37,579 nucleotides of DNA from positions 1-37,579 of the IMG/VR virus record IMGVR_UViG_2541047812_000004; one strand, given 5' to 3'. This DNA is from a virus. Lineage: Duplodnaviria > Heunggongvirae > Uroviricota > Caudoviricetes. Position 1 is the stretch's first letter. Every line of letters starts with the position of its first letter. The notes under the pieces were generated by a model. That model saw only the letters and a program-made list of their open reading frames with translations. It was not told the DNA's origin and did no database searches. Position numbers and translations under genes: made by a program. Shown in pieces: positions 2,949 to 27,576 of the stretch.

Positions 2949-3245
2949 ATGCTGACGAAAGAACCATCATTTGCATCGCTGCTGGTAAAACAAAGCCCGG
3001 CAATGCACTACGGTCACGGCTGGATCATGGGTGAGGATGGTAAACGCTGGCATCCGTGCCGTTCACAAGATGAATTGCTGTCTGAATTGACCACGGGGAA
3101 ACGGAGAAAGTCAAAATGTATGCAGCGGAAAGTGAAGTGGTTTATCAGTTTCGTTACAGAGGGGAGAGTTATTCAGTACCTGAAGATGATTTGCTCTGTT
3201 GTTATCCGTCGTTGTCGGGCGATGGCAGTTACTTTTTCACGCTAA
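2949..3245 (+). CDS. Hypothetical early protein (extent uncertain; 3' part overlaps next gene)
   Basis: ATG at 2949 with RBS GAGGTG 4 nt upstream, immediately after cII stop. The last ~130 nt overlap the 3116-3340 ORF in another frame, so the true C-terminus is doubtful. Confidence 0.4.
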   Translation: MLTKEPSFASLLVKQSPAMHYGHGWIMGEDGKRWHPCRSQDELLSELTTGKRRKSKCMQRKVKWFISFVTEGRVIQYLKMICSVVIRRCRAMAVTFSR

Positions 3246-3340
3246 AGGATGGGACGTTTTTACGGGGAGAGCAGGTTAAAGAGACGATACGAAAAAATGT
3301 ATCTCCTCTTGAACGTTACCGTAAGAACAAAGAACGATAG
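3116..3340 (+). CDS. Hypothetical early protein (74 aa)
   Basis: ATG at 3116 with GGAG RBS (3103-3106); compact co-directional operon. Confidence 0.55.
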   Translation: MYAAESEVVYQFRYRGESYSVPEDDLLCCYPSLSGDGSYFFTLKDGTFLRGEQVKETIRKNVSPLERYRKNKER

Positions 3341-3362
3341 TTGCGTTTTGGGGATATGAATT

Positions 3363-3704
3363 ATGGCAATTAATGGCGCTGCGGCAACTGTTCCATTAAG
3401 CCCCGGTGAACGCCTGAATGGACTTAATCACATTGCGGAGTTAAGGGCGAAAGTTTTTGGCCTGAATATTGAGTCAGAGCTTGAGCGGTTTATTAAAGAT
3501 ATGCGTGATCCACGGGATATCAATAGCGAACAAAATAAACGGGCACTGGCTGCCATATTCTTTATGGCAAAAATTCCAGCTGAACGTCATAGCATCAGCA
3601 TTAATGAGCTGACCACTGACGAAAAGCGGGAGTTGATTAAAGCAATGAATCATTTTCGTGCAGTGGTGAGCTTATTTCCCAGACGGCTAACCATGCCGAA
3701 TTAA
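3363..3704 (+). CDS. Hypothetical early protein (113 aa)
   Basis: ORF in co-directional early operon; no motif recognised. Confidence 0.55.
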   Translation: MAINGAAATVPLSPGERLNGLNHIAELRAKVFGLNIESELERFIKDMRDPRDINSEQNKRALAAIFFMAKIPAERHSISINELTTDEKRELIKAMNHFRAVVSLFPRRLTMPN

Positions 3705-3771
3705 CCAGCTAATGAAATTAATGGCGTAAACCCGCCGGGCATCCCTTTATCTAAATTCAGGAGAATTGATT

Positions 3772-4005
3772 ATGCGTAATATTGAAACCCTCACGACTAA
3801 AACCGGACCGGATGACGCAGGGCTTAATATTTTACTGACAGAGGCTCGTCTGGAAGAACGCCGGGCAAGGGCTGAAGCAATGGCTGCCCGCCTTGATAGG
3901 CTTGCGTGTCATATCACATCCCGCCAGCTAAACCACGTCGAAGCGGCAGAACTGCTGCGTGTGACCGCTGAAGCAATCCAGAACGAAGCGCAGGAGATCC
4001 ACTAA
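3772..4005 (+). CDS. Hypothetical early protein (77 aa)
   Basis: ATG at 3772 preceded by AGGAG (3759-3763); ORF-track start at 3766 is a TTG. Confidence 0.55.
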   Translation: MRNIETLTTKTGPDDAGLNILLTEARLEERRARAEAMAARLDRLACHITSRQLNHVEAAELLRVTAEAIQNEAQEIH

Positions 4006-4232: not shown

Positions 4233-4531
4233 CAGGGGCTGTGCGTATCCATCAATTAAAAATTGCACCTAAGTATTTCAACGCTGTGGTTGCAGGTCAA
4301 AAGACGGCTGAACTTCGTAAAGACGATCGTGGCTATAAAGTTGGTGATGTTCTTTCTCTTTGCGAATGGAAGCATGGCGTATTTACGGGTAGGGAATGGG
4401 CCGCGGTTATCTCTCATGTGCTTCCGGTTAATGACGTCATGGCAGTTTCAGAACAATGGGTGATGCTATCAATTCGCTCATTAACCCCATTAGAAGCTTT
4501 AGGATATGTTATTGCAGGAGGTGCTGTATGA
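4229..4531 (+). CDS. Hypothetical protein (possible ASCH-like fold)
   Basis: ATG at 4229 overlaps the upstream stop (ATGA); translationally coupled. Functional call is a weak recollection only. Confidence 0.5.
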
Positions 4532-5385
4532 GCACCATCCTGAAATGGGCGGGTAATAAAACCACCATTATGTCCGAACTGAAAAAATACCTTCCTGCTG
4601 GCACGCGACTGGTTGAACCTTTCGCGGGTTCTTGTGCTGTGATGATGGAGACGGATTACCCCAGCTATCTGGTTGCGGATATTAATCCTGATTTAATCAA
4701 CCTCTATAAAAAGGTTGCTGCTGATTGTGAGGCGTTTATATCTCGTGCCAGAGCTTTATTTGAGGAAGCAAACAGAGAGGTGGCTTATTACAACATAAGG
4801 CAGGAGTTTAATTACTCCACTGAAATTACTGATTTCATGAAAGCGGTATATTTTCTGTATCTCAATCGTCATGGTTACCGTGGGCTATGTCGCTATAACA
4901 AGAGCGGGTATTTCAACATTCCCTACGGTAATTATAAAAATCCGTATTTCCCTGAAAAAGAAATTCGCGCATTTGCAGAGAAAGCCCAGCGGGCAACGTT
5001 TATCTGCGCCAGCTTTGATGAAACGCTGGCGATGTTGAAGGCGGGGGATGTGGTGTATTGCGATCCGCCTTATGACGGTACGTTTTCCGGCTATCACACT
5101 GATGGCTTCACTGAAGATGACCAGTATCACCTGGCATCCGTTCTTGAACATCGATCATCTGAAGGTCATCCGGTCATTGTTTCTAACAGTGACACACCCC
5201 TGATCCGTTCGCTGTATCGCAATTTTACTCACCACTACATCAAGGCAAAACGCAGCATCGGCGTGGCAGCTGGTGAGAGTAAATCTGCAACAGAAATCAT
5301 CGCTGTTTCCGGGCCGCGCTGCTGGGTAGGATTTGATCCTTCGCGTGGCGTGGATTGTTCCGTCGTGTACGGAGTGCGTGCATGA
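4528..5385 (+). CDS. dam: DNA adenine methyltransferase (Dam-like, N6-adenine MTase)
   Basis: Motifs [16 protein letters not shown] and catalytic DPPY ([12 protein letters not shown]). ATG at 4528 overlaps upstream stop. Confidence 0.85.
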
Positions 5386-8684: not shown

Positions 8685-10763
8685 ATGCTAATTTTAGAAA
8701 CAACATATAAGTTTTTATCCACCTCGTTAAGGCTTTCTATGAGCAGTTTCTTTTATATCCAGCCTGATTTAAAAAATGATACAAATGCTGATTTTTTGAA
8801 CTCTGTTGAAGAGTATGCAAATACTCATCAAATGCAGATTTATGCAATAATGAATCCCTTAGGGGAAAATAAATATAAATATAATAGAGACGATGTTCTT
8901 ATTATATTAAGCCCAGGATACCAATTAGCGTTCGTTGCTTTTAGTGATGATGTTGATGGTATACAAAATTTTATAGAGGATTTTATAGAGGATTTAGGTT
9001 CCTTATCAGATAAATACAATTATAAAGATACAATTGGTAGGCCTCGAGCGTGGAAAGATAAACTTGTTACTGAGTGCTCATACGCTGATTTTAGTTTCGG
9101 TAATCTTGATAAGTTTTTTGATGAAATTAAAATTATTGATGGTGTTCTGGCTAAAAAGAGTGAGTTAATTATCTCTCTCTTAACAGGAAGTATCAATAAT
9201 ATTGATAAAGTTAAAGGCAATGTGCCAGATAATATACTTGACAAGGTTAAGCAAAAGATAATTTTGTTTGACGGAGATCAGACAAGGTTTGTATACCAAA
9301 AATTTGATAAGAAAAAAGTTGTTATTCAAGGATTATCAGGTACTGGTAAGACTGAACTATTGCTTCATAAGTTAAAGGAAATATATTTGGATAAGGAGAA
9401 TTTAAATAGTAAAATAATGTTTACGTGCCATAATAAAATATTGGCAGACAATATGAGAAAGAGAATTCCAGAGTTTTTCAACTTTATGAAGGTCGAGCAG
9501 CAGATTAGCTGGAATGAAAGACTTTGGTGTGTTAATGCATGGGGTTCTCAATATGACGGTAACTCTGGCGCATATAGATATATATGTGAATATTATGGAT
9601 TAAGTTTCTATCGTTTTAGCTATGTGATGACTTTCGATAAAGTATGTAGAATTGCGTTGGATGAACTAAAAAAGTTGCCAAGCAATGAATTTAAGCATTG
9701 CTTTGACTTTATGTTAATAGATGAAAGTCAGGATTTCCCATCAAGCTTCATTGAGCTTTGCGAGCTGGTAACTCGTGATACTATTTATGTTGCTGGTGAT
9801 ATATTTCAAAGTATATTTGATACTAATATCTCTAATGAGATACAGCCAGACTTTCTTCTAAGTAAATGCTACCGAACAGATCCAAGGACATTGATGTTTG
9901 CTCATGGTTTAGGTATGGGGCTATTTGAAGAAGAACCATTAACTTGGTTAATGAATAATGAATGGGAAGCCTGCGGTTATATAGTTGATGAATCGGTAAA
10001 AGGTAAGTTAAGATTAAAGAGAGAGCCACTAAGAAGATTTGAAGATGTAACGGATGCAAAAATACATAGTGTGGAATTAATTAATTCCACATATGAAACT
10101 GAAGAAGAGAATATTTTGGGTATACTCCGTAAAATTAAGGAGGAGAATCCTACTGTTTTGGCTGATGATATTGGTATCATCTTTATTGATCAGGCTAAGA
10201 CTATATTTAAAATCGCAGACAGACTTGAATTGAGCGTGCCTAGATTATTAGGATGGAAGGTTAATAAGGCATATGAAACAAAAGAAAAAATTAAAGACAC
10301 GTTATTCATAAGTAATAAAAACCATGTAAAAGGGTTGGAGTTTCCTTTTGTTATCTGTGTTACTCGTGATATTATCAAGAGCCATTCTTATCGAAATTCA
10401 CTATATATGATGTTAACTCGTTCCTTTATTAAGTCATATTTGCTTCTGGGAGATGGGAATAAAGACTTACAGAATGAGATAGAAAAGGGGTTAGATGCTA
10501 TTAATGAGCATGGTTATATGGATATTAACGTTCCACCGAGAGAAGTCATTTCAAAAATAAGAACAACAATCAAATATGATGAGAAAAATATATCTCATTA
10601 TGATTTGGTTACAAAGGTCTTCGATGACTTACAGATTGAGCCGATATTTCGTACATCCCTGTATAATACAGTAAAAACAATCATGCCTGATTCTTTTGAT
10701 GTCGATAAAATTACTACTCTTGTTCGGTTCAACTATGAAATAATGCTTCAGGAGTCGAAGTGA
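8685..10763 (+). CDS. SF1 (UvrD/Rep-like) helicase-family P-loop NTPase with unknown ~200-aa N-terminal domain; candidate defence protein
   Basis: Helicase motifs read from translation: I GLSGTGKT, II FMLIDESQDF, III VAGDIFQSIF, IV CYRTDPRTL, VI VKGLEFPFVIC. AT-rich. Alternative start ATG 8739 (MSSFFY..., RBS TAAGG) may be the true start. Confidence 0.75.
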   Translation: MLILETTYKFLSTSLRLSMSSFFYIQPDLKNDTNADFLNSVEEYANTHQMQIYAIMNPLGENKYKYNRDDVLIILSPGYQLAFVAFSDDVDGIQNFIEDFIEDLGSLSDKYNYKDTIGRPRAWKDKLVTECSYADFSFGNLDKFFDEIKIIDGVLAKKSELIISLLTGSINNIDKVKGNVPDNILDKVKQKIILFDGDQTRFVYQKFDKKKVVIQGLSGTGKTELLLHKLKEIYLDKENLNSKIMFTCHNKILADNMRKRIPEFFNFMKVEQQISWNERLWCVNAWGSQYDGNSGAYRYICEYYGLSFYRFSYVMTFDKVCRIALDELKKLPSNEFKHCFDFMLIDESQDFPSSFIELCELVTRDTIYVAGDIFQSIFDTNISNEIQPDFLLSKCYRTDPRTLMFAHGLGMGLFEEEPLTWLMNNEWEACGYIVDESVKGKLRLKREPLRRFEDVTDAKIHSVELINSTYETEEENILGILRKIKEENPTVLADDIGIIFIDQAKTIFKIADRLELSVPRLLGWKVNKAYETKEKIKDTLFISNKNHVKGLEFPFVICVTRDIIKSHSYRNSLYMMLTRSFIKSYLLLGDGNKDLQNEIEKGLDAINEHGYMDINVPPREVISKIRTTIKYDEKNISHYDLVTKVFDDLQIEPIFRTSLYNTVKTIMPDSFDVDKITTLVRFNYEIMLQESK

Positions 10764-11389
10764 ATAAAGAGTATTATTTTAGTCTGGAGCAGGCTCAGTG
10801 TGACTGGGCCTTTAAGCCAATACGAACAAAGAAAGATGTTATTGAAATATTGATGAGATTAATCAAACTAATTTCTGTTTATACAGAACCATGCGAACAG
10901 AATGTGGTTGGGAGAGTGAAACTTCATATATCAAAGATGAGTCGAGTTTTCTTCTTTAGTGAAAATAAATATTATTCTCTTGCATTTCCTTTTTTTCTTG
11001 ATGAAATTAATGGTCAGATTTTATTTAGTAGTCCAGAAATGGAGTGTATAGATAGTTTTGTAACATCAAAAGTCATTTCTTTTATTAATGACTCCTCTTA
11101 TTTGAATAGTTCTTCTTGGGCCTTTTTTGAACCATTGTTAAATATTGAAGAACATCAAGGTATTCCCGGGTTTTGGCCTTTTCTTAGAATGTTGTTAACT
11201 TATGAGGATGGTTATATTAGATATGATGTCGATGAAGAAAGGGCTAATGGAAATCGTCATCCATTATATCATTTCGACGTCTTTTATTCTAATCCGCCAA
11301 CGTTTAAAATTGGTTTGAATGCACATTATACAAATGATGAAATGATTGATTTTCTTGATAGGGAAACTGATTGTCGTTATTTGAAATGA
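10760..11389 (+). CDS. Hypothetical protein (209 aa), partner of the helicase-like gene
   Basis: GTG start at 10760 overlaps upstream stop (GTGA) with AGGAG 5 nt upstream; translational coupling. AT-rich; no recognisable motif. Confidence 0.6.
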   Translation: MNKEYYFSLEQAQCDWAFKPIRTKKDVIEILMRLIKLISVYTEPCEQNVVGRVKLHISKMSRVFFFSENKYYSLAFPFFLDEINGQILFSSPEMECIDSFVTSKVISFINDSSYLNSSSWAFFEPLLNIEEHQGIPGFWPFLRMLLTYEDGYIRYDVDEERANGNRHPLYHFDVFYSNPPTFKIGLNAHYTNDEMIDFLDRETDCRYLK

Positions 11390-18963: not shown

Positions 18964-19357
18964 AGCGGTGCCTTATGTCCGCAATAATCCGGACAAACTG
19001 CATCTGTTTGTGGATAACGGTTCGCTGGTTGCTACGGGGGCCAGCTCCATGTCATGGGAGTACCGTTACACCCTGAACGTGGTGATTGAGGATTTCAGCG
19101 GCGACCAGAATCTGCTGATGGCCCCGGTTTTGCTGTGGCTGCGGGATAACCAGCCCGATGCCATCAATAACCCAGCGTTACGGGAAAAGTTATTCACCTT
19201 TGAGGTGGATATTCTGCGCAATGATGTCTGTGATATCAGCCTGAACCTGCAACTGACGGAGCGTGTGCTGGTCAGCACTGACGGCAGTGTGTCGAGTGTT
19301 GAAGCTGTAGCGGAACCCGATGAACCTGAAGAAATGTGGACGGTAAAACGTGGCTGA
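18926..19357 (+). CDS. R: Tail completion protein (P2 gpR-like)
   Basis: Similar to recalled P2 gpR (FVDNGS..., YRYTLNVV..., PVLLWLRDNQPD). Start placed at GTG 18926 with AGGAG RBS; ORF-track start 18905 is a TTG. Confidence 0.75.
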   Translation: MNKPQSLRHALNKAVPYVRNNPDKLHLFVDNGSLVATGASSMSWEYRYTLNVVIEDFSGDQNLLMAPVLLWLRDNQPDAINNPALREKLFTFEVDILRNDVCDISLNLQLTERVLVSTDGSVSSVEAVAEPDEPEEMWTVKRG

Positions 19358-19796
19358 ACTGCAGAAGGTGGACGACTGGCTGAGTGCCTTGCTGGCGAAT
19401 CTGGAGCCAGCCGCAAGAAGCCGCATGATGCGCCAGCTGGCGCAGGAACTACGCCGGACACAGCAGCAGAATATCAGAATGCAGCGCAATCCAGATGGCA
19501 GCAGTTATGAACCGCGACGGGTAACAGCACGCAGCAAAAAAGGCCGCATCAAACGTCAGATGTTTACAAAGCTGCGCACCACAAAATACCTGAAAACTGC
19601 CGCCAGCGCCGACTCTGCCAGCGTGCAGTTTGAAGGCAAGGTACAGCGCATTGCCCGTGTTCACCATTACGGCCTGCGTGATCGCGTCAGTCGCAAAGGA
19701 CCGGAGGTCCGTTACGCAGAGCGTCGCCTGCTGGGTGTAAATGATGATTTATACTTTTTAACACGCCGCATTTTATTGCAATGGTTGGCGAGGTAG
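19350..19796 (+). CDS. S: Tail completion protein (P2 gpS-like)
   Basis: GTG start overlapping R stop; size about 148 aa as for P2 S. The last ~20 codons run into the AT-rich cargo boundary. Confidence 0.75.
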   Translation: MAELQKVDDWLSALLANLEPAARSRMMRQLAQELRRTQQQNIRMQRNPDGSSYEPRRVTARSKKGRIKRQMFTKLRTTKYLKTAASADSASVQFEGKVQRIARVHHYGLRDRVSRKGPEVRYAERRLLGVNDDLYFLTRRILLQWLAR

Positions 19797-19853
19797 AGTT
19801 GGTTGACTTTTTGTAGTTCCTACTCTAACCTCACCGATTGATTTTAGGTTATA

Positions 19854-21608
19854 TCAATCCCAAAATAAATTATTATTAATATTGCTCATATCGAAAGTGA
19901 AGTTCTTTTCTGTAATAGTTTCGTACCTTTGTTCATAGATTATTTTTACATATCTAAACCCCTGTGTTACAGAGCGAATTTTTCGGGGTTTTGATGCAAG
20001 CATAACAAGTATTTCAAATACTTTATCAAGATAGTTGTGGGTGTGTTCAACTAAAAGGGGGGTAAATTTACCACCTTTTCCAGAATGGACTATGTTATTT
20101 CTTGTTCTATAAATTCTTCTGAGTTGCCATTCTAATCTTAACTTATGGTTATCTAAAGTTGATTTAATTGACTCCGGGGATGAAACTATGTTTTTTATAT
20201 ACTCGAAACGATCTGAAAGCAATGTGTAATCACGAAATTTAGCGGATAAAGATTCCCTTACTGATTCGTATTCAGGAAGAATCATTATATTGGCTAGTTT
20301 GTGTTTCGCTTTTGCTCCAGGTATTCCTTTTAAATGTGAGTTTAGTATGTGTCTATTCCATAACAGCAGGTCTCGGGTAAGGTTGTCAATTAAGGAGTCT
20401 ATATATGTAATATTCAGGAATGGAATTATACTTGCAGTAATATGTTCTATTGTTGCTTGATCCTTGGATTTAGTGTCTGTCGGCACTAATGATTCAAGAG
20501 CTATCCATAGATTTAAAAGCTGATTTTCAACATTTTCACTTTTTAATGCCATTGAATGTAATTGAATACTTCTCAAGAACTTGGCAAATGAACTATTTTC
20601 TAGAGAAAACTCAGACATCAATGATTCAAGACGTTTCTTGGCCTTTTCATGCTTTAAGTCCTTGCATTTTTTCATGGGGTTAAGTCTTTCAGCCACTTTC
20701 AAAGAGTCTGTATCAGTTATAACGAAAGCTTCATTTGACCAAGTAGGTTTATCTTTATGATGATAAATATTTAAAAAGGATGATGCTAATTTAAGTAGGT
20801 TTTCAGCATTCTCTCTTGCTGAATAAGAATCAAAAGCTTCTATATTTGATACGCAAACTATCTTCTTTCGTTGCAGATTTCTAAAAAAAACATGTTGGGA
20901 AAATTCTTCTGGTGGTTCTTTCTCAACAGACAAAGAGAGTCTTTCGAAAGTTGGCTCTGCGCCTAAAAACACTGGTTCAACAATAAAATATATTTTGTAT
21001 TTCTTTTTTTCGAGTTTTATTAAATCAAAAAAAGAAGAGACATCAGTGTTATTTGATATTTTATTATTCCCATAATAAAAAAATTGCTGGGTTAAATTCT
21101 TAAGATTATGTTGGCTAAAGCCAATGTAGAGTAATAAACTGATATAATTTCTTGTTAGCTTGCGTATGATGCTTCTTTCCCAGTTAGGGGATGATAACTC
21201 TTGGGTGATAAGTTCTTCACTTTTTTCTTTATATAATTTGGGTGGTAATTGAATGACCAGCATTTCAATTATTGAGCTTCTCTCTTTAGGGCTTATGTTA
21301 GTATTTTTTAGTTTGTTGAGAAAAGCTTGGTAAGCATCGCCTAATAAATCTTGTGCTACTTTATCACATGACAAGTTATGTATTAATTCTGCGGTTAAAT
21401 GTTCAATATTTTTAGGCTGAATAATACCATCCTCAACATCTTTAATTGTATTTAAAGTTTCTACTCCAATTGTTGGGGTATTCATCACTGAGGGTTTGTA
21501 TGTGTCCAGTGTATAGTCAAATAGCATTTCATCCAGTAATTGCGCAAAATATACTAGTGCTTTACAAGTGTCTGGGCAATCCCATTTATACAAAGAACGA
21601 AATTTCAT
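19854..21608 (-). CDS. Large AT-rich cargo protein (584 aa) with C-terminal HEPN-like Rx4-6H motif; candidate abortive-infection/defence protein
   Basis: Uninterrupted 584-codon ORF, ATG at 21608, opposite strand to flanking S and V, in the P2 orf30 position. C-terminal segment RRIYRTRNNIVHSG fits the HEPN Rx4-6H signature. Confidence 0.7.
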   Translation of the reverse strand: MKFRSLYKWDCPDTCKALVYFAQLLDEMLFDYTLDTYKPSVMNTPTIGVETLNTIKDVEDGIIQPKNIEHLTAELIHNLSCDKVAQDLLGDAYQAFLNKLKNTNISPKERSSIIEMLVIQLPPKLYKEKSEELITQELSSPNWERSIIRKLTRNYISLLLYIGFSQHNLKNLTQQFFYYGNNKISNNTDVSSFFDLIKLEKKKYKIYFIVEPVFLGAEPTFERLSLSVEKEPPEEFSQHVFFRNLQRKKIVCVSNIEAFDSYSARENAENLLKLASSFLNIYHHKDKPTWSNEAFVITDTDSLKVAERLNPMKKCKDLKHEKAKKRLESLMSEFSLENSSFAKFLRSIQLHSMALKSENVENQLLNLWIALESLVPTDTKSKDQATIEHITASIIPFLNITYIDSLIDNLTRDLLLWNRHILNSHLKGIPGAKAKHKLANIMILPEYESVRESLSAKFRDYTLLSDRFEYIKNIVSSPESIKSTLDNHKLRLEWQLRRIYRTRNNIVHSGKGGKFTPLLVEHTHNYLDKVFEILVMLASKPRKIRSVTQGFRYVKIIYEQRYETITEKNFTFDMSNINNNLFWD

Positions 21609-21624
21609 TTTTGTTATTCCATAT

Positions 21625-21642
21625 TGTAAGACCGCTCATACA
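21625..21642. promoter_or_regulatory. Ogr-type late promoter activator site (TGT-N12-ACA) upstream of V
   Basis: tgtaagaccgctcataca = TGT-N12-ACA, about 47 bp upstream of the V ATG. Confidence 0.55.
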
Positions 21643-21688
21643 AATACATATGTTTTAAGATAAATGCAAGATGTTGAATCATTGCCCT

Positions 21689-22267
21689 ATGAACGCACAA
21701 CTAACCGAAATCATGCGCCTTATCACCAACCTGATCCGCACTGGGGTAGTCACCGAAGTGGACAGGGAAAACTGGCTTTGCCGGGTGAAAACGGGCGAGC
21801 TTGAAACCAACTGGATCAGCTGGCTGACGCTGCGTGCCGGGAATGCCCGCACATGGTGGCGACCATCGGAAGGTGAGCAGGTTGTGCTGCTGAGTCTGGG
21901 CGGCAATCTGGAAACCGCCTTTGCGCTGCCCGCTGTCTATTCGAATCAGTTCGCACCACCGTCTACGTCGGCGGACGCCTGCGTGACAGAACATCCTGAC
22001 GGCGCCTGGTTTGAATACGAACCCGCCACCGGGCGCTGGTATGTCAGGGGCATCAAATCAATGGTCATTGAGGCCGCTGACAACATCACCATGAAAACCA
22101 GTGAGTTTGTGCTGGAGGCTGACCGCACGCGTATTAACAGCGAAGTGGTGATCAATGGTGGCGTTACCCAGGGCGGCGGAGCGATGAGTTCTAACGGGAT
22201 CGTGGTTGATGCGCATCAGCATACTGGCGTTCTGAAAGGCGGCGACACAACCGGAGGCCCGGTATGA
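21689..22267 (+). CDS. V: Baseplate spike protein (P2 gpV-like)
   Basis: MNAQLTEIMRLITNLIRTGVVTEVD... parallels recalled P2 gpV N-terminus; start placed at ATG 21689. Confidence 0.85.
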   Translation: MNAQLTEIMRLITNLIRTGVVTEVDRENWLCRVKTGELETNWISWLTLRAGNARTWWRPSEGEQVVLLSLGGNLETAFALPAVYSNQFAPPSTSADACVTEHPDGAWFEYEPATGRWYVRGIKSMVIEAADNITMKTSEFVLEADRTRINSEVVINGGVTQGGGAMSSNGIVVDAHQHTGVLKGGDTTGGPV

Positions 22268-24116: not shown

Positions 24117-25699
24117 GCACAAAATTTTATACCCTGCTAACGGATATTGGCGCGGCGAAACTTGCCAGCGCCGCCGCGCTCGGTGTGCCGCTAAAAATTA
24201 CCCATATGGCGGTGGGCGATGGCGGCGGAGTATTGCCAACGCCGGACGCCAAGCAGACGGCACTGGTAAATGAGAAACGCCGGGCTGCGCTGAATATGCT
24301 TTATATCGACCCGCAGAACAGTAGCCAGATTATTGCTGAACAGGTGATCCCTGAAAACGAGGGCGGTTGGTGGATACGTGAAGTGGGCCTGTTTGATGAG
24401 TCCGGGGCATTGATTGCCGTGGGAAACTGCCCGGAAAGCTATAAGCCGAAACTGGCTGAAGGCAGCGGGCGTACCCAGACCGTGCGCATGGTGCTGATTA
24501 CCAGCAGTACGGACAATATCATCCTGAAAATCGACCCTGCTGTAGTGCTGGCAACCCGTAAATACGTGGATGATAAAGTCCTGGAATTAAAGCTGTATGT
24601 GGATGACCAGATGAGAAACCACATTGCCGCACAAGATCCTCATACCCAGTATGCGCAGAAACATAATCCGACATTTACCGGAGAACCAAAAGCGCCGACG
24701 CCTGCAGCAGGAAATAACACCACTCGGATTGCGACCACAGAGTTTGTTCAGGCCGCTATTACTGCTCTGATTAACGGTGCGCCAGCCACGCTGGACACAC
24801 TGAAAGAAATTGCCGCAGCCATTAACAATGACCCGAAATTCAGTACCACTATTAATAATGCGCTGGCACTGAAAGCGCCGCTGTCGAGTCCGGCACTTAC
24901 TGGAACGCCAACAGCACCTACTGCGGCACAGTCGGTCAACAATACACAGATTGCCACTACGGCTTTTGTGAAATCGGCGATTGCAGGAATGGTGGGTTCT
25001 GCACCTGCGGCACTGGATACATTGAACGAACTGGCGGCGGCGCTGGGGAATGACCCGAACTTTGCCACGACAATGCTTAATGCACTGGCAGGTAAACAAC
25101 CGCTGGACAATACGCTGACTAATTTGAGTGGAAAGGATGTAGCTGGTCTTCTCACATACCTTGGTTTGGGAGAAGGCTCTGCATTACCGGTTGGGGTGCC
25201 TGTTCCGTGGCCTTCAGCCACTCCGCCAACAGGCTGGCTGAAATGCAATGGTGCGGCTTTTTCTGCTGAAGAATACCCGGAACTGGCAAAGGCTTACCCG
25301 ACCAATAAATTGCCTGATTTACGCGGTGAATTTATTCGTGGCTGGGATGATGGACGTGGAGTGGATGCGGGGCGAGCCTTGCTAAGTCTTCAGGATGACT
25401 CTTTTGAAGCTCACAGGCATGAGTCCTTTTTTTACGCGGGTATTTCACGCAATGAAACACCATTAAAAAATCTTCCAAGTTCAGACGAGATGCTGACTTT
25501 AAGTTCCACAACTAATGCCTTGTCCCCGGACAGTATTGATGCCACCAATTCGTTAATTGGTAATGATGATTACAACTGTCTGATTGAAGGAAATAAAAAT
25601 AACAAACGAACGGCAACGGGGTTGAGTACCAGTATTGTCGGTGCAGCAGAGACACGCCCACGTAATATTTCATTTAATTACATTGTGAGGGCTGCATGA
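24113..25699 (+). CDS. H: Tail fibre protein (P2 gpH-like), C-terminus inside an invertible segment
   Basis: Repeated fibre motifs (APATLDTLKEIAAAINNDP / APAALDTLNELAAALGNDP) and C-terminal LPDLRGEFIRGWDDGRGVD motif; the crossover site lies within the gene at 25149-25174. Confidence 0.85.
   Translation: MSTKFYTLLTDIGAAKLASAAALGVPLKITHMAVGDGGGVLPTPDAKQTALVNEKRRAALNMLYIDPQNSSQIIAEQVIPENEGGWWIREVGLFDESGALIAVGNCPESYKPKLAEGSGRTQTVRMVLITSSTDNIILKIDPAVVLATRKYVDDKVLELKLYVDDQMRNHIAAQDPHTQYAQKHNPTFTGEPKAPTPAAGNNTTRIATTEFVQAAITALINGAPATLDTLKEIAAAINNDPKFSTTINNALALKAPLSSPALTGTPTAPTAAQSVNNTQIATTAFVKSAIAGMVGSAPAALDTLNELAAALGNDPNFATTMLNALAGKQPLDNTLTNLSGKDVAGLLTYLGLGEGSALPVGVPVPWPSATPPTGWLKCNGAAFSAEEYPELAKAYPTNKLPDLRGEFIRGWDDGRGVDAGRALLSLQDDSFEAHRHESFFYAGISRNETPLKNLPSSDEMLTLSSTTNALSPDSIDATNSLIGNDDYNCLIEGNKNNKRTATGLSTSIVGAAETRPRNISFNYIVRAA
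25149..25174. repeat. hix/gix-like recombination site (left crossover site of invertible tail-fibre segment)
   Basis: ttctcacatacc-tt-ggtttgggagaa; 26-bp site with imperfect dyad symmetry; its right half is the exact reverse complement of the left half of the site at 26787-26812. Confidence 0.65.
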
Positions 25700-26304
25700 T
25701 GTATAACGCCATCTTAAATAATAAATTTATTGCCACAAAGGCAGGAGAGATTACCGTTTATAACTATGACAGTGAGACACGGGAGTATATTTCTGCATCA
25801 ATTGAATATCTTGCTGTGGGTGTCGGTATCCCCGCATATTCCTGTTTAGATGCTCCTGGCACACATAAGGATGGTTATGCAATCTGCCGTTCGGCAGATT
25901 TTAACTCATGGGAATATGTGCCAGACCATCGCGGTGAAGTTGTCTATAACACCGAAACGGGAGAATCAAAAGAAATCACAGCTCCGGGGGATTACCCTGA
26001 TAATACAACCACTATCGCCCCGTTAACGCTATACGATAAATGGGATGGTGAGAAATGGGTGACGGATACCGAGGCACAGCATAGCGCCGCAGTAGATGCA
26101 GCAGAAGCACAGCGCCAGTCGCTGATGGATACTGCAATGGCTTCCATCAATCTGATTCAACTGAAATTACAGGCCGGACGGAGTCTGACGCAGGCAGAAA
26201 CCAACCGACTTAACACGGTGCTGAATTACATTGACGCAGTGACGGCAACAGATACCAGCACCGCGCCTGATATTATTTGGCCTGTATTCCCTGAGACTGA
26301 TTAA
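25696..26304 (+). CDS. G: Tail fibre assembly protein (P2 gpG-like)
   Basis: Tfa-type N-terminus (MMYNAILNNKFI...) and C-terminal WPVFP; overlaps H stop. Confidence 0.8.
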   Translation: MMYNAILNNKFIATKAGEITVYNYDSETREYISASIEYLAVGVGIPAYSCLDAPGTHKDGYAICRSADFNSWEYVPDHRGEVVYNTETGESKEITAPGDYPDNTTTIAPLTLYDKWDGEKWVTDTEAQHSAAVDAAEAQRQSLMDTAMASINLIQLKLQAGRSLTQAETNRLNTVLNYIDAVTATDTSTAPDIIWPVFPETD

Positions 26305-26533
26305 CCTCAATTAGTATTGGTTCGCCTTTCTCATTAATTGTTAGCTCCATGCCCTGAGGAATTTCTGTAATAGTAAAAAACCAGTTGTCCTCCGGTAATT
26401 CAATAGCCCCGGTCACGTCATGAAGACCGGGGATTACTTCAGTCAAAGTAACTGGATTAAACAGGCGCACAATAAACCCTCCAGGAAAAAGCATTTGATG
26501 ATGGTCTGCCGTCGTACATCTGGCAGCGGGCAT
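26273..26533 (-). CDS. Possible alternative tail-fibre assembly gene (inverted cassette, may be truncated)
   Basis: Convergent with G, overlapping at the 3' ends, inside the invertible segment; only 86 aa and it overlaps the alternative fibre cassette, so integrity is doubtful. Confidence 0.35.
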   Translation of the reverse strand: MPAARCTTADHHQMLFPGGFIVRLFNPVTLTEVIPGLHDVTGAIELPEDNWFFTITEIPQGMELTINEKGEPILIEVNQSQGIQAK

Positions 26534-26786
26534 AAAAGCCGGTATTTGTTACCTGATCATCCACGATCATTGAAACGTGAACATTATTAGGTGTGCTCTC
26601 GTAATCCGTTCTTATTCTTTCCGCGATACTGATAAAACGTGAAAGTTTAGGCAGTGCAATTGGGTAAACAACTTTAGCCAGTCCATTATCATTAGATCCA
26701 CCGGTTCCAAATACTTCTATTGCACCATCTGACCAGCGTATCCATGCACCATTGGCATTAGCTCCTCGCTGAATGACATATCTGGC
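26457..26786 (-). other. Alternative tail-fibre C-terminal cassette (promoterless, fused to H only after inversion)
   Basis: Minus-strand frame reads through the right crossover site (FLNVGLGE...) and continues about 110 codons; it shares the LGLGE junction with H at the left site; no independent RBS or start expected. Confidence 0.55.
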
Positions 26787-26812
26787 TTCTCCCAAACCAA
26801 CGTTTAAGAAAA
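26787..26812. repeat. hix/gix-like recombination site (right crossover site)
   Basis: ttctcccaaacc-aa-cgtttaagaaaa; inverted relative to the site at 25149-25174 (shared 12-bp half-site ggtttgggagaa on opposite strands). Confidence 0.65.
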
Positions 26813-26867
26813 TGCAGCGATTACGACTAACTGGCATCATCCCCGATTTTTATTCAAGGAGATGATC

Positions 26868-27434
26868 ATGCTTATTGGTTATGTACGCGTGTCAACAAAT
26901 GACCAGAACACCGATTTGCAACGTAATGCACTGAATTGCGCGGGATGTGAGCGGATTTTTGAGGACAAAATCAGTGGCACTAAGTCCGACAGACCGGGGC
27001 TTAAAAAACTGCTTAGGACACTATCGGCAGGAGACACTCTGGTTGTCTGGAAGCTGGACAGGTTGGGGCGCAGTATGCGGCATCTTGTTACGCTGATAGA
27101 AGAGTTGCGCCAGCGTGGTGTGAATTTCCGAAGCCTGACTGACAGTATTGATACCAGCACCCCAATGGGCCGTTTCTTTTTTCATGTCATGGGGGCCTTG
27201 GCTGAAATGGAACGCGAACTGATAGTTGAACGTACCAGGGCAGGGCTGGCTGCAGCTCGTGTTAAAGGCAGAGTAGGTGGACGCCGTCCTAAGTTGACCA
27301 GCGAACAGTGGGCACAGATTGGGCGTTTACTCGAGGCCGGAGAATCAAGACAGCGTATTGCACTGATTTTTGATGTGGGCGTTTCTACCATTTATCGAAA
27401 ATTTCCGGCAAATAAGAGCAATGAATCTCCCTGA
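26868..27434 (+). CDS. Serine recombinase DNA invertase (Pin/Gin/Hin/Cin family)
   Basis: MLIGYVRVSTNDQNTDLQRNAL... with catalytic Ser in YVRVST is very similar to recalled e14 Pin; C-terminal HTH. Start at ATG 26868 with AAGGAG RBS. Confidence 0.9.
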   Translation: MLIGYVRVSTNDQNTDLQRNALNCAGCERIFEDKISGTKSDRPGLKKLLRTLSAGDTLVVWKLDRLGRSMRHLVTLIEELRQRGVNFRSLTDSIDTSTPMGRFFFHVMGALAEMERELIVERTRAGLAAARVKGRVGGRRPKLTSEQWAQIGRLLEAGESRQRIALIFDVGVSTIYRKFPANKSNESP

Positions 27435-27482
27435 ATCAGCTTTATTTTGATTATCCCTGAGAGCAGATAAATACCGTCATTT

Positions 27483-27500
27483 TGTGTGAATAACGGTACA
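27483..27500. promoter_or_regulatory. Ogr-type late promoter activator site (TGT-N12-ACA) upstream of FI
   Basis: tgtgtgaataacggtaca = TGT-N12-ACA, about 77 bp upstream of the FI ATG. Confidence 0.55.
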
Positions 27501-27576
27501 ACTGCGCTTAGCTGTTTGTCAGGCACAATCACTTCAACATAGGGCGAAGCCTAATCCAATCAGGAGGTTCGCCACT

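What the first reader, a model, noticed from the sequence alone, without database searches (positions are those of the whole stretch)
19797..21688. Single 584-aa AT-rich gene inserted between S and V (P2 orf30 position) with a HEPN-like C-terminal motif
The S-V junction is the second known variable site in P2. Here it holds one long minus-strand ORF (19854..21608), opposite in orientation to the flanking late genes and strongly AT-rich. Near the C-terminus the segment RRIYRTRNNIVHSG fits the HEPN Rx4-6H RNase signature found in many abortive-infection proteins. The N-terminal ~480 aa are unassigned. The S gene's last ~20 codons run into the AT-rich boundary, suggesting the insertion replaced the native S 3' end.
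Basis: partly seen in the sequence, partly recalled or inferred. Interest (0 to 1): 0.8.

Follow-up and report, generated by a model that had tools for sequence, protein, structure and literature searches.

The report
Known ApeA antiphage RNase in P2 prophage
The AT-rich gene between the tail genes S and V of this P2-like prophage encodes ApeA, a HEPN ribonuclease anti-phage defence protein.

Summary
A 584-aa minus-strand ORF (19854..21608, GC about 0.32 against about 0.57 in the flanks) lies between P2-type S and V.

The protein matches PDB 9HXJ "Ec3ApeA" at 582 of 584 residues. It is 40% identical to Ec2ApeA and clearly homologous to the founding ApeA (Ec1ApeA). A 2026 preprint reports that ApeA proteins form doughnut-shaped oligomers of HEPN dimers and cut tRNA anticodon loops, causing abortive infection. 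Ec3ApeA is a dodecamer that gives moderate phage protection.

These two residues are invariant or nearly so in 119 homologs.

All 15 ligand-pocket residues of Ec2ApeA are conserved here, so I infer activation by 5'-phosphorylated deoxydinucleotides. This has not been shown for Ec3ApeA.

The exchanged module is about 19749-21681. It includes the last 16 codons of S, as a homologous variant that leaves S intact. It also carries a terminator-like hairpin and its own copy of the Ogr-type pV activator site. The layout is exactly that of P2 orf30.

The slot is empty or holds other cargo in related prophages. ApeA alleles at 42-100% identity occupy it in Escherichia, Klebsiella and Pantoea.

Verdict: interpretation supported, already known, low interest.

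The parts
19854..21608 (-). apeA gene (Ec3ApeA allele), 584 aa, a single-gene HEPN RNase defence system
   Evidence: ORF. 582/584 identical to PDB 9HXJ Ec3ApeA; Ec2ApeA E=9e-135; Ec1ApeA E=1.9e-11. PADLOC ApeA E=1.4e-13.
21012..21608 (-). N-terminal domain (residues ~1-199). Supplies pocket residues T36, Y37, S40, V41, M42, E74, R149, R153
   Evidence: Domain limits transferred from Ec2ApeA (1-198) through the alignment.
20679..21011 (-). Mid domain (residues ~200-310)
   Evidence: Transferred from Ec2ApeA 199-309.
20583..20615 (-). Loop equivalent to the Ec2ApeA regulatory loop (residues 332-342). It has S335/E337/N338 where Ec2 has R334/R336/K337
   Evidence: Alignment. S/E is the majority state among 119 homologs. 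Loop function shown only for Ec2ApeA.
19857..20603 (-). Split HEPN_ApeA domain (residues ~336-584)
   Evidence: Ec2ApeA 335-583. The PADLOC ApeA match covers 337-535.
20085..20102 (-). Catalytic HEPN motif R503-N-N-I-V-H508 (Rx4H)
   Evidence: Aligns with Ec2 R502/H507. R is 119/119 and H is 118/119 in homologs. Ec2 R502A and Ec1 R521A abolish defence.
19749..21681 (.). The exchanged cargo module as a whole (about 1.93 kb)
   Evidence: Left break at 19748/19749 in 320 E. coli genomes. Identity to the empty-site phage drops from ~97% to ~63% from about 19749 on. Right break at 21682. No flanking direct or inverted repeats.
19749..19796 (+). Variant last 16 codons of S (LYFLTRRILLQWLAR instead of VEAMTRDMILQWLAG), which travel with the cargo
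   Evidence: The same end occurs in the other ApeA carriers L002 and L004.
19787..19835 (.). Strong hairpin between the convergent S and apeA genes, at the position of the P2 O-operon terminator
   Evidence: MFE -26.9/-29.1 kcal/mol, z -4.8/-5.7, 0 of 200 shuffles as good. P2 annotates a rho-independent terminator here. A different perfect hairpin sits at the same place in the Klebsiella module. The terminator scan did not call it because there is no clean T-run.
21625..21642 (+). TGT-N12-ACA dyad, the likely Ogr/Delta activator site of the late pV promoter
   Evidence: Its centre is 55.5 nt before the V ATG. The spacing is 55.5-56.5 nt in five other P2-like phages with different sequences. 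In P2 the annotated activator site is centred 55.5 nt before the annotated V transcription start, which is the first base of the V CDS.
21609..21688 (.). 80-nt divergent control region. It must hold the apeA promoter and contains pV
   Evidence: No sigma-70 consensus was found here, so the apeA promoter is not identified.
19350..19796 (+). S (tail completion / virion morphogenesis), 148 aa, intact
   Evidence: phrog_26 E=1.6e-47; PF05069.
21689..22267 (+). V (baseplate assembly/spike), 192 aa
   Evidence: phrog_9992; differs at only one residue from V of phage 500465-1.

Best explanation
The gene encodes ApeA (the Ec3ApeA allele), a single-protein anti-phage defence system carried as a moron in the S-V (orf30) slot of a P2-like prophage of E. 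coli.

**Shown by others, for a protein differing from this one at only two residues or for close family members:**
- The protein forms HEPN-mediated dimers that assemble into a doughnut-shaped dodecamer, with the HEPN active sites facing a tRNA-sized central channel.
- Expressed in E. coli, it gives moderate protection against some phages.
- Family members Ec1ApeA and Ec2ApeA cut tRNAs in the anticodon loop when activated. This stops translation and aborts infection.

**Inferred here:**
- All 15 residues of the Ec2ApeA ligand pocket are conserved. This protein is therefore most likely switched on by the same kind of signal: 5'-phosphorylated deoxydinucleotides ending in G, released when a lytic phage degrades host DNA.
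- R503 and H508 are the catalytic pair.
- The relay from pocket to active site probably differs in detail from Ec2ApeA, because the two regulatory-loop arginines are absent.
- The gene arrived by homologous exchange of a roughly 1.9-kb module. The module brings its own S 3' end, an operon terminator and a pV activator site, so the phage late operons stay intact.
For: - **Identity:** 582/584 to 9HXJ Ec3ApeA, with full-length homology to Ec2, Ec1 and Ec4ApeA. PADLOC ApeA E=1.4e-13.
- **Published function and structure:** (bioRxiv 10.64898/2026.01.26.701840).
- **Catalytic and pocket residues:** mapped. R503 is 100% and H508 99% conserved, and 12 of 15 pocket residues are at least 95% conserved, across 119 homologs whose mean identity to this protein is 48%.
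- **Purifying selection:** dN=0.13 against the Klebsiella allele, with synonymous sites saturated.
- **Single-gene system:** only phage core genes flank it in all 7 places shown, and in the Klebsiella and Pantoea loci.
- **Module boundaries and slot architecture:**
Against: - No ligand density was seen in the pockets of ApeA homologs other than Ec2ApeA, so deoxydinucleotide binding is unproven for Ec3ApeA.
- tRNA cleavage and the HEPN-mutant controls were done for Ec1 and Ec2, not Ec3.
- Protection was only "moderate", and it was measured under a T7 promoter on a plasmid rather than from the prophage.
- No sigma-70 consensus lies upstream of the gene.
- The regulatory-loop residues R334, R336 and K337 of Ec2 are S, E and N here.
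- The only carrier among 5,426 complete E. coli genomes has a frameshifted copy.
- This window's protein differs from the tested one at two residues (T135 where the solved protein has I, V190 where it has A), neither at a known functional site.
Confidence: 0.85

Rival explanations
1. It is ApeA, but it is triggered by something other than deoxydinucleotides, such as another small nucleotide or a phage RNA structure. It might also act non-abortively by cutting phage RNA directly, as reported for Ec1ApeA against ssRNA phages.
For: - Ec1ApeA does not respond to deoxydinucleotides and has a different phage range.
- Ec1ApeA is reported to cleave RNA-phage genomes without killing the cell.
- No ligand density was seen in Ec3ApeA.
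- The regulatory loop differs from Ec2.
Against: - Ec1ApeA's differing specificity goes with substitutions of several pocket residues (E74D, R490D, S40K, H487T and others).
- Here all 15 Ec2 pocket residues are kept, and they are nearly invariant across the clade.
Confidence: 0.2
2. In its native prophage the gene is silent or decaying cargo. It could be xenogeneically silenced AT-rich DNA with no effective promoter, contributing little or nothing to host immunity.
For: - No promoter consensus in the 80-nt upstream region.
- GC of 0.32 in a 0.57 background.
- The EC416 copy is frameshifted.
- It is rare: 1 of 5,426 complete E. coli genomes.
- It gave only moderate protection even when overexpressed.
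Against: - The ORF is intact here.
- The exact protein is listed in 79 blocks of the assembly collection.
- There is strong purifying selection and near-invariant catalytic and pocket residues.
- Alleles at 42-100% identity are maintained in the same slot in three genera.
Confidence: 0.12
3. It serves the prophage itself, for example as a toxin that stabilises lysogeny or as a function in P2 morphogenesis, rather than excluding other phages.
For: - It sits inside the late gene cluster.
- Overexpressed ApeA is toxic.
Against: - There is no partner antitoxin gene.
- The slot is empty in close, evidently complete relatives, including isolated phages.
- P2 orf30 at this site is annotated as nonessential.
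- A 46% homolog sits in an integrase/restriction-modification island outside any phage.
- Direct anti-phage activity has been reported.
Confidence: 0.03

Closest known systems
Ec3ApeA (PDB 9HXJ; Juozapaitis et al., bioRxiv 10.64898/2026.01.26.701840)
   Same: 582 of 584 residues identical over the full length. It is therefore the same protein for practical purposes: a dodecameric doughnut of HEPN dimers with Zn2+ at the dimer interface and moderate anti-phage protection.
   Different: Two substitutions (T135 here vs I, V190 here vs A), neither at a pocket or catalytic position. The paper never mentions a prophage. The native context (P2 S-V slot, antisense, with its own terminator and pV site) is described only here.
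Ec2ApeA (PDB 9HXI and related entries)
   Same: Full-length homolog with 40% identity. Same three-domain layout, the same catalytic R/H, and all 15 pocket residues conserved, 14 identical plus I41V.
   Different: - Ec2 is a decamer and Ec3 a dodecamer.
- Regulatory-loop R334/R336/K337 are S/E/N here.
- Interface residues Q99, I112 and E554 differ.
- pdNG binding and activation, and in-vitro tRNA cleavage, are shown only for Ec2.
Ec1ApeA (founding ApeA, WP_000706972.1; first described in the large defence-system screen cited)
   Same: Significant homology over residues 19-535 (E=1.9e-11). Single-gene HEPN defence with a catalytic Rx4H motif.
   Different: Distant in sequence. Several pocket residues are substituted in Ec1, and it does not respond to deoxydinucleotides. 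It also restricts some ssRNA phages non-abortively.
Other HEPN anticodon nucleases and toxins (PrrC/RloC, HepT)
   Same: A HEPN Rx4-6H active site formed across a dimer. tRNA is the target for ApeA, as for PrrC. HepT is the closest structural homolog of the ApeA HEPN core.
   Different: There is no ABC-ATPase (PrrC), no MntA-type antitoxin (HepT) and no linked restriction-modification system. The large N-terminal and Mid domains, the ligand pocket and the ring assembly are specific to ApeA.
P2 orf30 and the P2 late-gene accessory/defence hotspot
   Same: Same slot, same antisense orientation, and the same order: S, terminator, cargo, pV activator site, leaderless V. The site lies within the P2 late genes, where a 2026 survey reports defence hotspots ("within the late genes" and "downstream of GpL"). 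Whether the S-V slot is specifically one of them was not checked.
   Different: The orf30 protein (261 aa) is unrelated to ApeA (best BLASTP E=0.37). Neither of the two P2 hotspot papers I searched mentions ApeA in its main text.

Membership tests
ApeA defence system | Full-length sequence homology to experimentally characterised ApeA proteins, including the founding member Ec1ApeA | tested here: met
   phmmer against PDB: Ec3ApeA 582/584 identical; Ec2ApeA E=8.7e-135 (residues 1-581); Ec1ApeA E=1.9e-11 (19-535); Ec4ApeA E=8.2e-8. PADLOC ApeA HMM E=1.4e-13.
ApeA defence system | C-terminal HEPN domain with an Rx4-6H catalytic motif | tested here: met
   R503-NNIV-H508 aligns with Ec2 R502/H507. 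R is 119/119 and H is 118/119 in homologs. The HEPN fold is solved for the near-identical 9HXJ.
ApeA defence system | Single-gene system with no conserved partner gene | tested here: met
   Only P2 core genes flank it in all 7 places shown for the exact protein and in the Klebsiella and Pantoea loci. The Burkholderia homolog has unrelated neighbours.
ApeA defence system | [quoted passage not shown] | tested here: met
   All 15 Ec2ApeA pocket residues are conserved, 14 identical plus I41V. 12 of 15 are at least 95% conserved across 119 homologs.
ApeA defence system | Higher-order doughnut oligomer of HEPN dimers | not testable with these tools
   Reported by cryo-EM for Ec3ApeA (dodecamer, 9HXJ), which differs at two residues. 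Not recomputed here.
ApeA defence system | Anti-phage activity that depends on the HEPN active site | not testable with these tools
   Ec3ApeA gave moderate protection on a plasmid. Active-site mutants were tested only for Ec1 (R521A) and Ec2 (R502A).
ApeA defence system | Cleavage of tRNA anticodon loops on activation | not testable with these tools
   Shown in vivo for Ec1ApeA and in vitro for Ec2ApeA, not for Ec3ApeA.
Deoxydinucleotide (pdNG)-activated ApeA (Ec2ApeA type) | Pocket residues that read the 3' guanine and 5' phosphate (E74, main chain of 41/42, R148, R152, R490, Y401, Y469, Y525, H487, Q494) | tested here: met
   All are present at the aligned positions: E74, V41/M42, R149, R153, R491, Y402, Y470, Y526, H488, Q495.
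Deoxydinucleotide (pdNG)-activated ApeA (Ec2ApeA type) | Regulatory loop arginines R334/R336 that relay ligand binding | tested here: not met
   S335 and E337 here. S/E is the majority state of the clade, 104/119 and 86/119. The relay described for Ec2 cannot be assumed to apply.
Deoxydinucleotide (pdNG)-activated ApeA (Ec2ApeA type) | Demonstrated binding of, and activation by, pdNG | not testable with these tools
   The paper saw no comparable ligand density in homologs other than Ec2ApeA. No binding data are reported for Ec3ApeA.
Pfam HEPN_Apea / Pfam HEPN families | Match to a Pfam HEPN model above the gathering threshold | tested here: not met
   No Pfam HEPN hit, even at E<=1. The only hit was MauJ at E=0.09, below its cutoff. 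This reflects model sensitivity and is not evidence against the fold, which is solved.
P2 orf30 family | Sequence homology to the P2 Orf30 protein | tested here: not met
   Best BLASTP E=0.37 over 59 residues. Only the genomic slot is shared.

The most novel reading that the evidence does not exclude
The Ec3-type ApeA clade is an old resident of the P2 S-V slot, with alleles at 42-100% identity in Escherichia, Klebsiella and Pantoea.

Two things could follow:
- Sensing of deoxydinucleotides from host-DNA breakdown may be the clade-wide trigger. The pocket is nearly invariant, while the Ec2-specific arginine relay is the exception.
- The slot's wiring may switch apeA off during the prophage's own late phase, so that P2 does not abort itself. 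The gene is convergent with the O operon and lies back-to-back with the Ogr-dependent, leaderless pV promoter inside one 80-nt region.

None of this is discussed in the ApeA or P2 hotspot papers read here.
Probability: 0.15. Interest if true: 0.4.

Novelty: already known. Interest (0 to 1): 0.2.

Why it matters
As a discovery it does not matter much. The protein has already been expressed, tested against phage panels and solved by cryo-EM as Ec3ApeA.

What this analysis adds is modest:
- **Native home of Ec3ApeA:** it sits in the P2 orf30 slot and is exchanged as a module. The module carries the last 16 codons of S, a terminator-like hairpin and a pV activator site.
- **Testable trigger:** it should be activated by pdNG deoxydinucleotides, like Ec2ApeA, despite lacking Ec2's regulatory arginines.
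- **Annotation gap:** Pfam, NCBIfam and PHROGs give no significant match, and NCBI calls the protein hypothetical. PADLOC matches only a third of its model. This may be why surveys of P2 hotspots do not list it.

Tried and rejected
- **Family libraries:** Pfam, NCBIfam and PHROGs scans of the protein gave nothing significant.
- **Phage records:** tblastn against 50,697 phage records found no ApeA homolog. DNA searches there matched only the S and V flanks.
- **P2 Orf30 as a relative:** rejected.
- **Transposon-like insertion:** rejected, with no flanking direct or terminal inverted repeats. The breakpoints lie in homologous phage DNA.
- **Structured RNA in the region:** no Rfam match at E<=1.
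- **apeA promoter:** the sigma-70 scan found nothing in 21609-21688, and fewer sites in the region than in shuffles. By eye, a TACAAT lies 14 nt before the ATG, but it has no credible -35 element.
- **Terminator:** the intrinsic-terminator scan found none. The hairpin at 19787-19835 is strong but lacks a clean T-run, so "terminator" rests on its position matching the P2 annotation.
- **dN/dS:** could not be computed as a ratio because dS is saturated.
- **Structure prediction and fold search:** not run, because a cryo-EM structure of a protein differing at only two residues already exists.
Full report
**1.

- The window has a 584-aa ATG-initiated ORF on the minus strand at 19854..21608.
- GC is 0.30-0.35 through 19850-21650, against 0.54-0.61 on both sides.
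- The upstream + strand gene (19350-19796, 148 aa) is P2-type S (phrog_26 tail completion, E=1.6e-47; PF05069).
- The downstream gene is V (21689-22267, 192 aa; baseplate assembly V, PF04717).
- The window as a whole is a P2-like prophage. It is collinear at 96-97% identity over most late and replication genes with a prophage of E. coli EC416, integrated between rcdA and ybjL.

**2. What the protein is**

- PADLOC matches its ApeA model over residues 337-535 (E=1.4e-13). Pfam, NCBIfam and PHROGs give nothing significant.
- A search of PDB sequences settles the question:

| PDB chain | Protein | Match to this ORF |
|---|---|---|
| 9HXJ | Ec3ApeA | 582 of 584 residues identical (differences: T135 here vs I, V190 here vs A) |
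| 9HXI and related | Ec2ApeA | E=8.7e-135, residues 1-581 |
| 9HXN | Ec1ApeA (founding member) | E=1.9e-11, residues 19-535 |
| 9HXM | Ec4ApeA | E=8.2e-8 |

- The source paper is bioRxiv 10.64898/2026.01.26.701840. It reports the following:
  - ApeA is a single-protein HEPN defence system acting by abortive infection.
  - Ec1ApeA cuts tRNAs in the anticodon loop during infection, and Ec2ApeA does so in vitro.
  - Monomers have an N-terminal domain, a Mid domain and a split HEPN domain of about 250 residues.
  - HEPN dimers assemble into rings. Ec1, Ec2 and Ec4 are decamers, and Ec3ApeA is a dodecamer.
  - Ec3ApeA gave "moderate" protection against phages when expressed from a plasmid.
  - Ec2ApeA is switched on by 5'-phosphorylated deoxydinucleotides ending in G, bound in a pocket far from the active site.
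- A second preprint (10.64898/2026.03.20.713152) shows that Ec1ApeA also restricts some ssRNA phages, non-abortively.

**3. Residue-level checks made here**

- I aligned this protein with Ec2ApeA (40% identity).
This pair aligns with Ec2 R502/H507, and R502A abolishes Ec2 defence.
- All 15 Ec2 pocket residues are conserved, 14 identical plus I41V, where only the main chain contacts the ligand.
- Across 119 full-length homologs whose mean identity to this protein is 48%:
  - R503 is invariant and H508 is present in 118 of 119.
  - 12 of the 15 pocket residues are at least 95% conserved.
- The regulatory-loop residues R334/R336/K337 of Ec2 are S335/E337/N338 here. S and E are the majority state of the clade (104/119 and 86/119). 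The arginine relay described for Ec2 is therefore the exception rather than the rule.
- The gene is under purifying selection. dN is 0.13 against the 80%-identical Klebsiella allele, while synonymous sites are saturated.

**4. Most likely mechanism**

- Shown by others for the near-identical protein: the ring assembly and anti-phage activity.
- Shown for family members only: anticodon-loop cleavage, abortive infection and ligand activation.
- Inferred here from the fully conserved pocket: Ec3ApeA senses the same class of ligand (pdNG deoxydinucleotides from host-DNA degradation by lytic phages) and then cuts tRNAs with the R503/H508 site.
- Caveats:
  - No ligand density was seen in homologs other than Ec2.
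  - The relay loop differs from Ec2.
  - Nothing is known about expression from the prophage.

**5. The slot and the module**

- Two isolated relatives, Escherichia phage 500465-1 and Klebsiella phage 4LV2017, have only 68 nt between the S stop and the V start.
- *V side.* Homology to these relatives resumes at 21682.
- *S side.*
  - BLAST extends to 19794, but identity falls from about 97% to about 63% over the last 57 nt of S.
  - In 320 other complete E. coli genomes with this S gene, high-identity homology stops at window 19748/19749. Only EC416, the one other ApeA carrier, continues past it.
  - The last 16 codons of S therefore belong to the exchanged module.
  - They encode a homologous S end of the same length (LYFLTRRILLQWLAR versus VEAMTRDMILQWLAG), so S is intact.
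- *No transposon signature.* There are no flanking repeats.
- *Layout.* P2's own record gives the template: S, a putative O-operon terminator, antisense nonessential orf30, the pV activator site, then V. The V transcription start is annotated at the first base of the CDS, and the activator site is centred 55.5 nt upstream of it. The window reproduces this:
  - A strong hairpin lies at 19787-19835 (z -4.8 and -5.7).
  - A TGT-N12-ACA dyad lies at 21625-21642, centred 55.5 nt before the V ATG.
  - The dyad has the same spacing in five other P2-like phages with different sequences.
- *Other occupants of the slot.* In related prophages the slot is empty (strain WP5-W18-ESBL-11) or holds an antisense DUF6216 gene (strain 3150). 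Orf30 itself is unrelated to ApeA.
- *Literature.* A 2026 survey reports P2 defence hotspots within the late genes, including one "downstream of GpL". Whether the S-V slot is specifically one of them was not checked. Neither hotspot paper I searched mentions ApeA in its main text, and the ApeA paper never mentions prophages.

**6. Distribution**

- The exact protein is listed in 79 blocks of the assembly collection. All 7 places shown lie between S and V of P2-like prophages.
- An 80% allele in Klebsiella and a 42% allele in Pantoea sit in the same slot and orientation.
- A 46% homolog in Burkholderia sits in an integrase/restriction-modification island.
- Only 1 of 5,426 complete E. coli genomes carries this allele, and that copy is frameshifted by a 1-nt deletion.
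- No deposited phage genome carries an ApeA homolog.

**7. Verdict**

- The object is already known. It is a near-identical allele of a protein with a solved structure and published phenotype, in a recognised accessory-gene slot of P2.
- New here, and modest:
  - the native genomic context of Ec3ApeA and the exact module boundaries;
  - the prediction of pdNG sensing from a fully conserved pocket, despite a different relay loop;
  - an annotation gap in Pfam, NCBIfam and PHROGs.
- Interest is low (0.2).

Noticed in passing
window 8685-11389 (+): The other classic P2 variable site (between replication gene A and portal gene Q, the tin/old position) holds a 692-aa UvrD-like SF1 helicase (PADLOC 'Helicase' PDLC03002 E=2.9e-28; Pfam UvrD_C_2, UvrD-helicase, AAA_19). 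A translationally coupled 209-aa protein follows, with no family match. The otherwise collinear EC416 prophage has a P-loop NTPase there instead. This is a candidate two-gene defence system.
   Followed up: partly
window 26862-27434 (+), with 25075-27575: A 190-aa serine recombinase of the Hin/Gin invertase type (Resolvase E=1.7e-52 plus HTH_7) lies between the tail-fibre assembly gene and the sheath gene. This stretch is not collinear with EC416. It suggests an invertible tail-fibre (host-range) segment. The same gene is present in L004.
   Followed up: no
window 21625-21689; L001, L003, L004, L011, L016, L017: The TGT-N12-ACA dyad is centred 55.5-56.5 nt before the V start codon in every P2-like phage examined. 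P2's record puts the V transcription start on the first base of the CDS. V therefore appears to be translated from a leaderless mRNA across the group.
   Followed up: partly
L002 (E. coli EC416), equivalent to window 21077: The only complete E. coli genome with this apeA allele has a 1-nt deletion. It splits the gene into two annotated 'hypothetical protein' CDSs of 372 and 195 aa. This is either gene decay or an assembly error.
   Followed up: partly
protein residues 335-338 (window 20595-20606): The regulatory-loop arginines that are functionally important in Ec2ApeA (R334, R336) are a minority state. 104 of 119 homologs have S and 86 of 119 have E at these positions. E at the second position is the very substitution (R336E) used in the hyperactive Ec2 'Trip' mutant.
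   Followed up: partly
L019 (E. coli strain 3150) 3049-3855: In this relative the S-V slot holds an antisense DUF6216-family gene whose 3' end overlaps the last ~59 nt of S. The slot therefore has several alternative cargoes that reach into the S 3' end.
   Followed up: no
window 4456-5385 (+): A D12-class (Dam-type) orphan N6-adenine DNA methyltransferase lies in the early region (Pfam E=3.3e-76; PADLOC oMTase E=6e-111). It is also present in EC416.
   Followed up: no
window 19854-21608 (annotation): Public annotation calls this protein and its relatives 'hypothetical protein'. Pfam (including its HEPN models), NCBIfam and PHROGs all miss it, and PADLOC's ApeA model matches only about a third of its length. 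Automated defence-system surveys may under-count this ApeA clade.
   Followed up: partly
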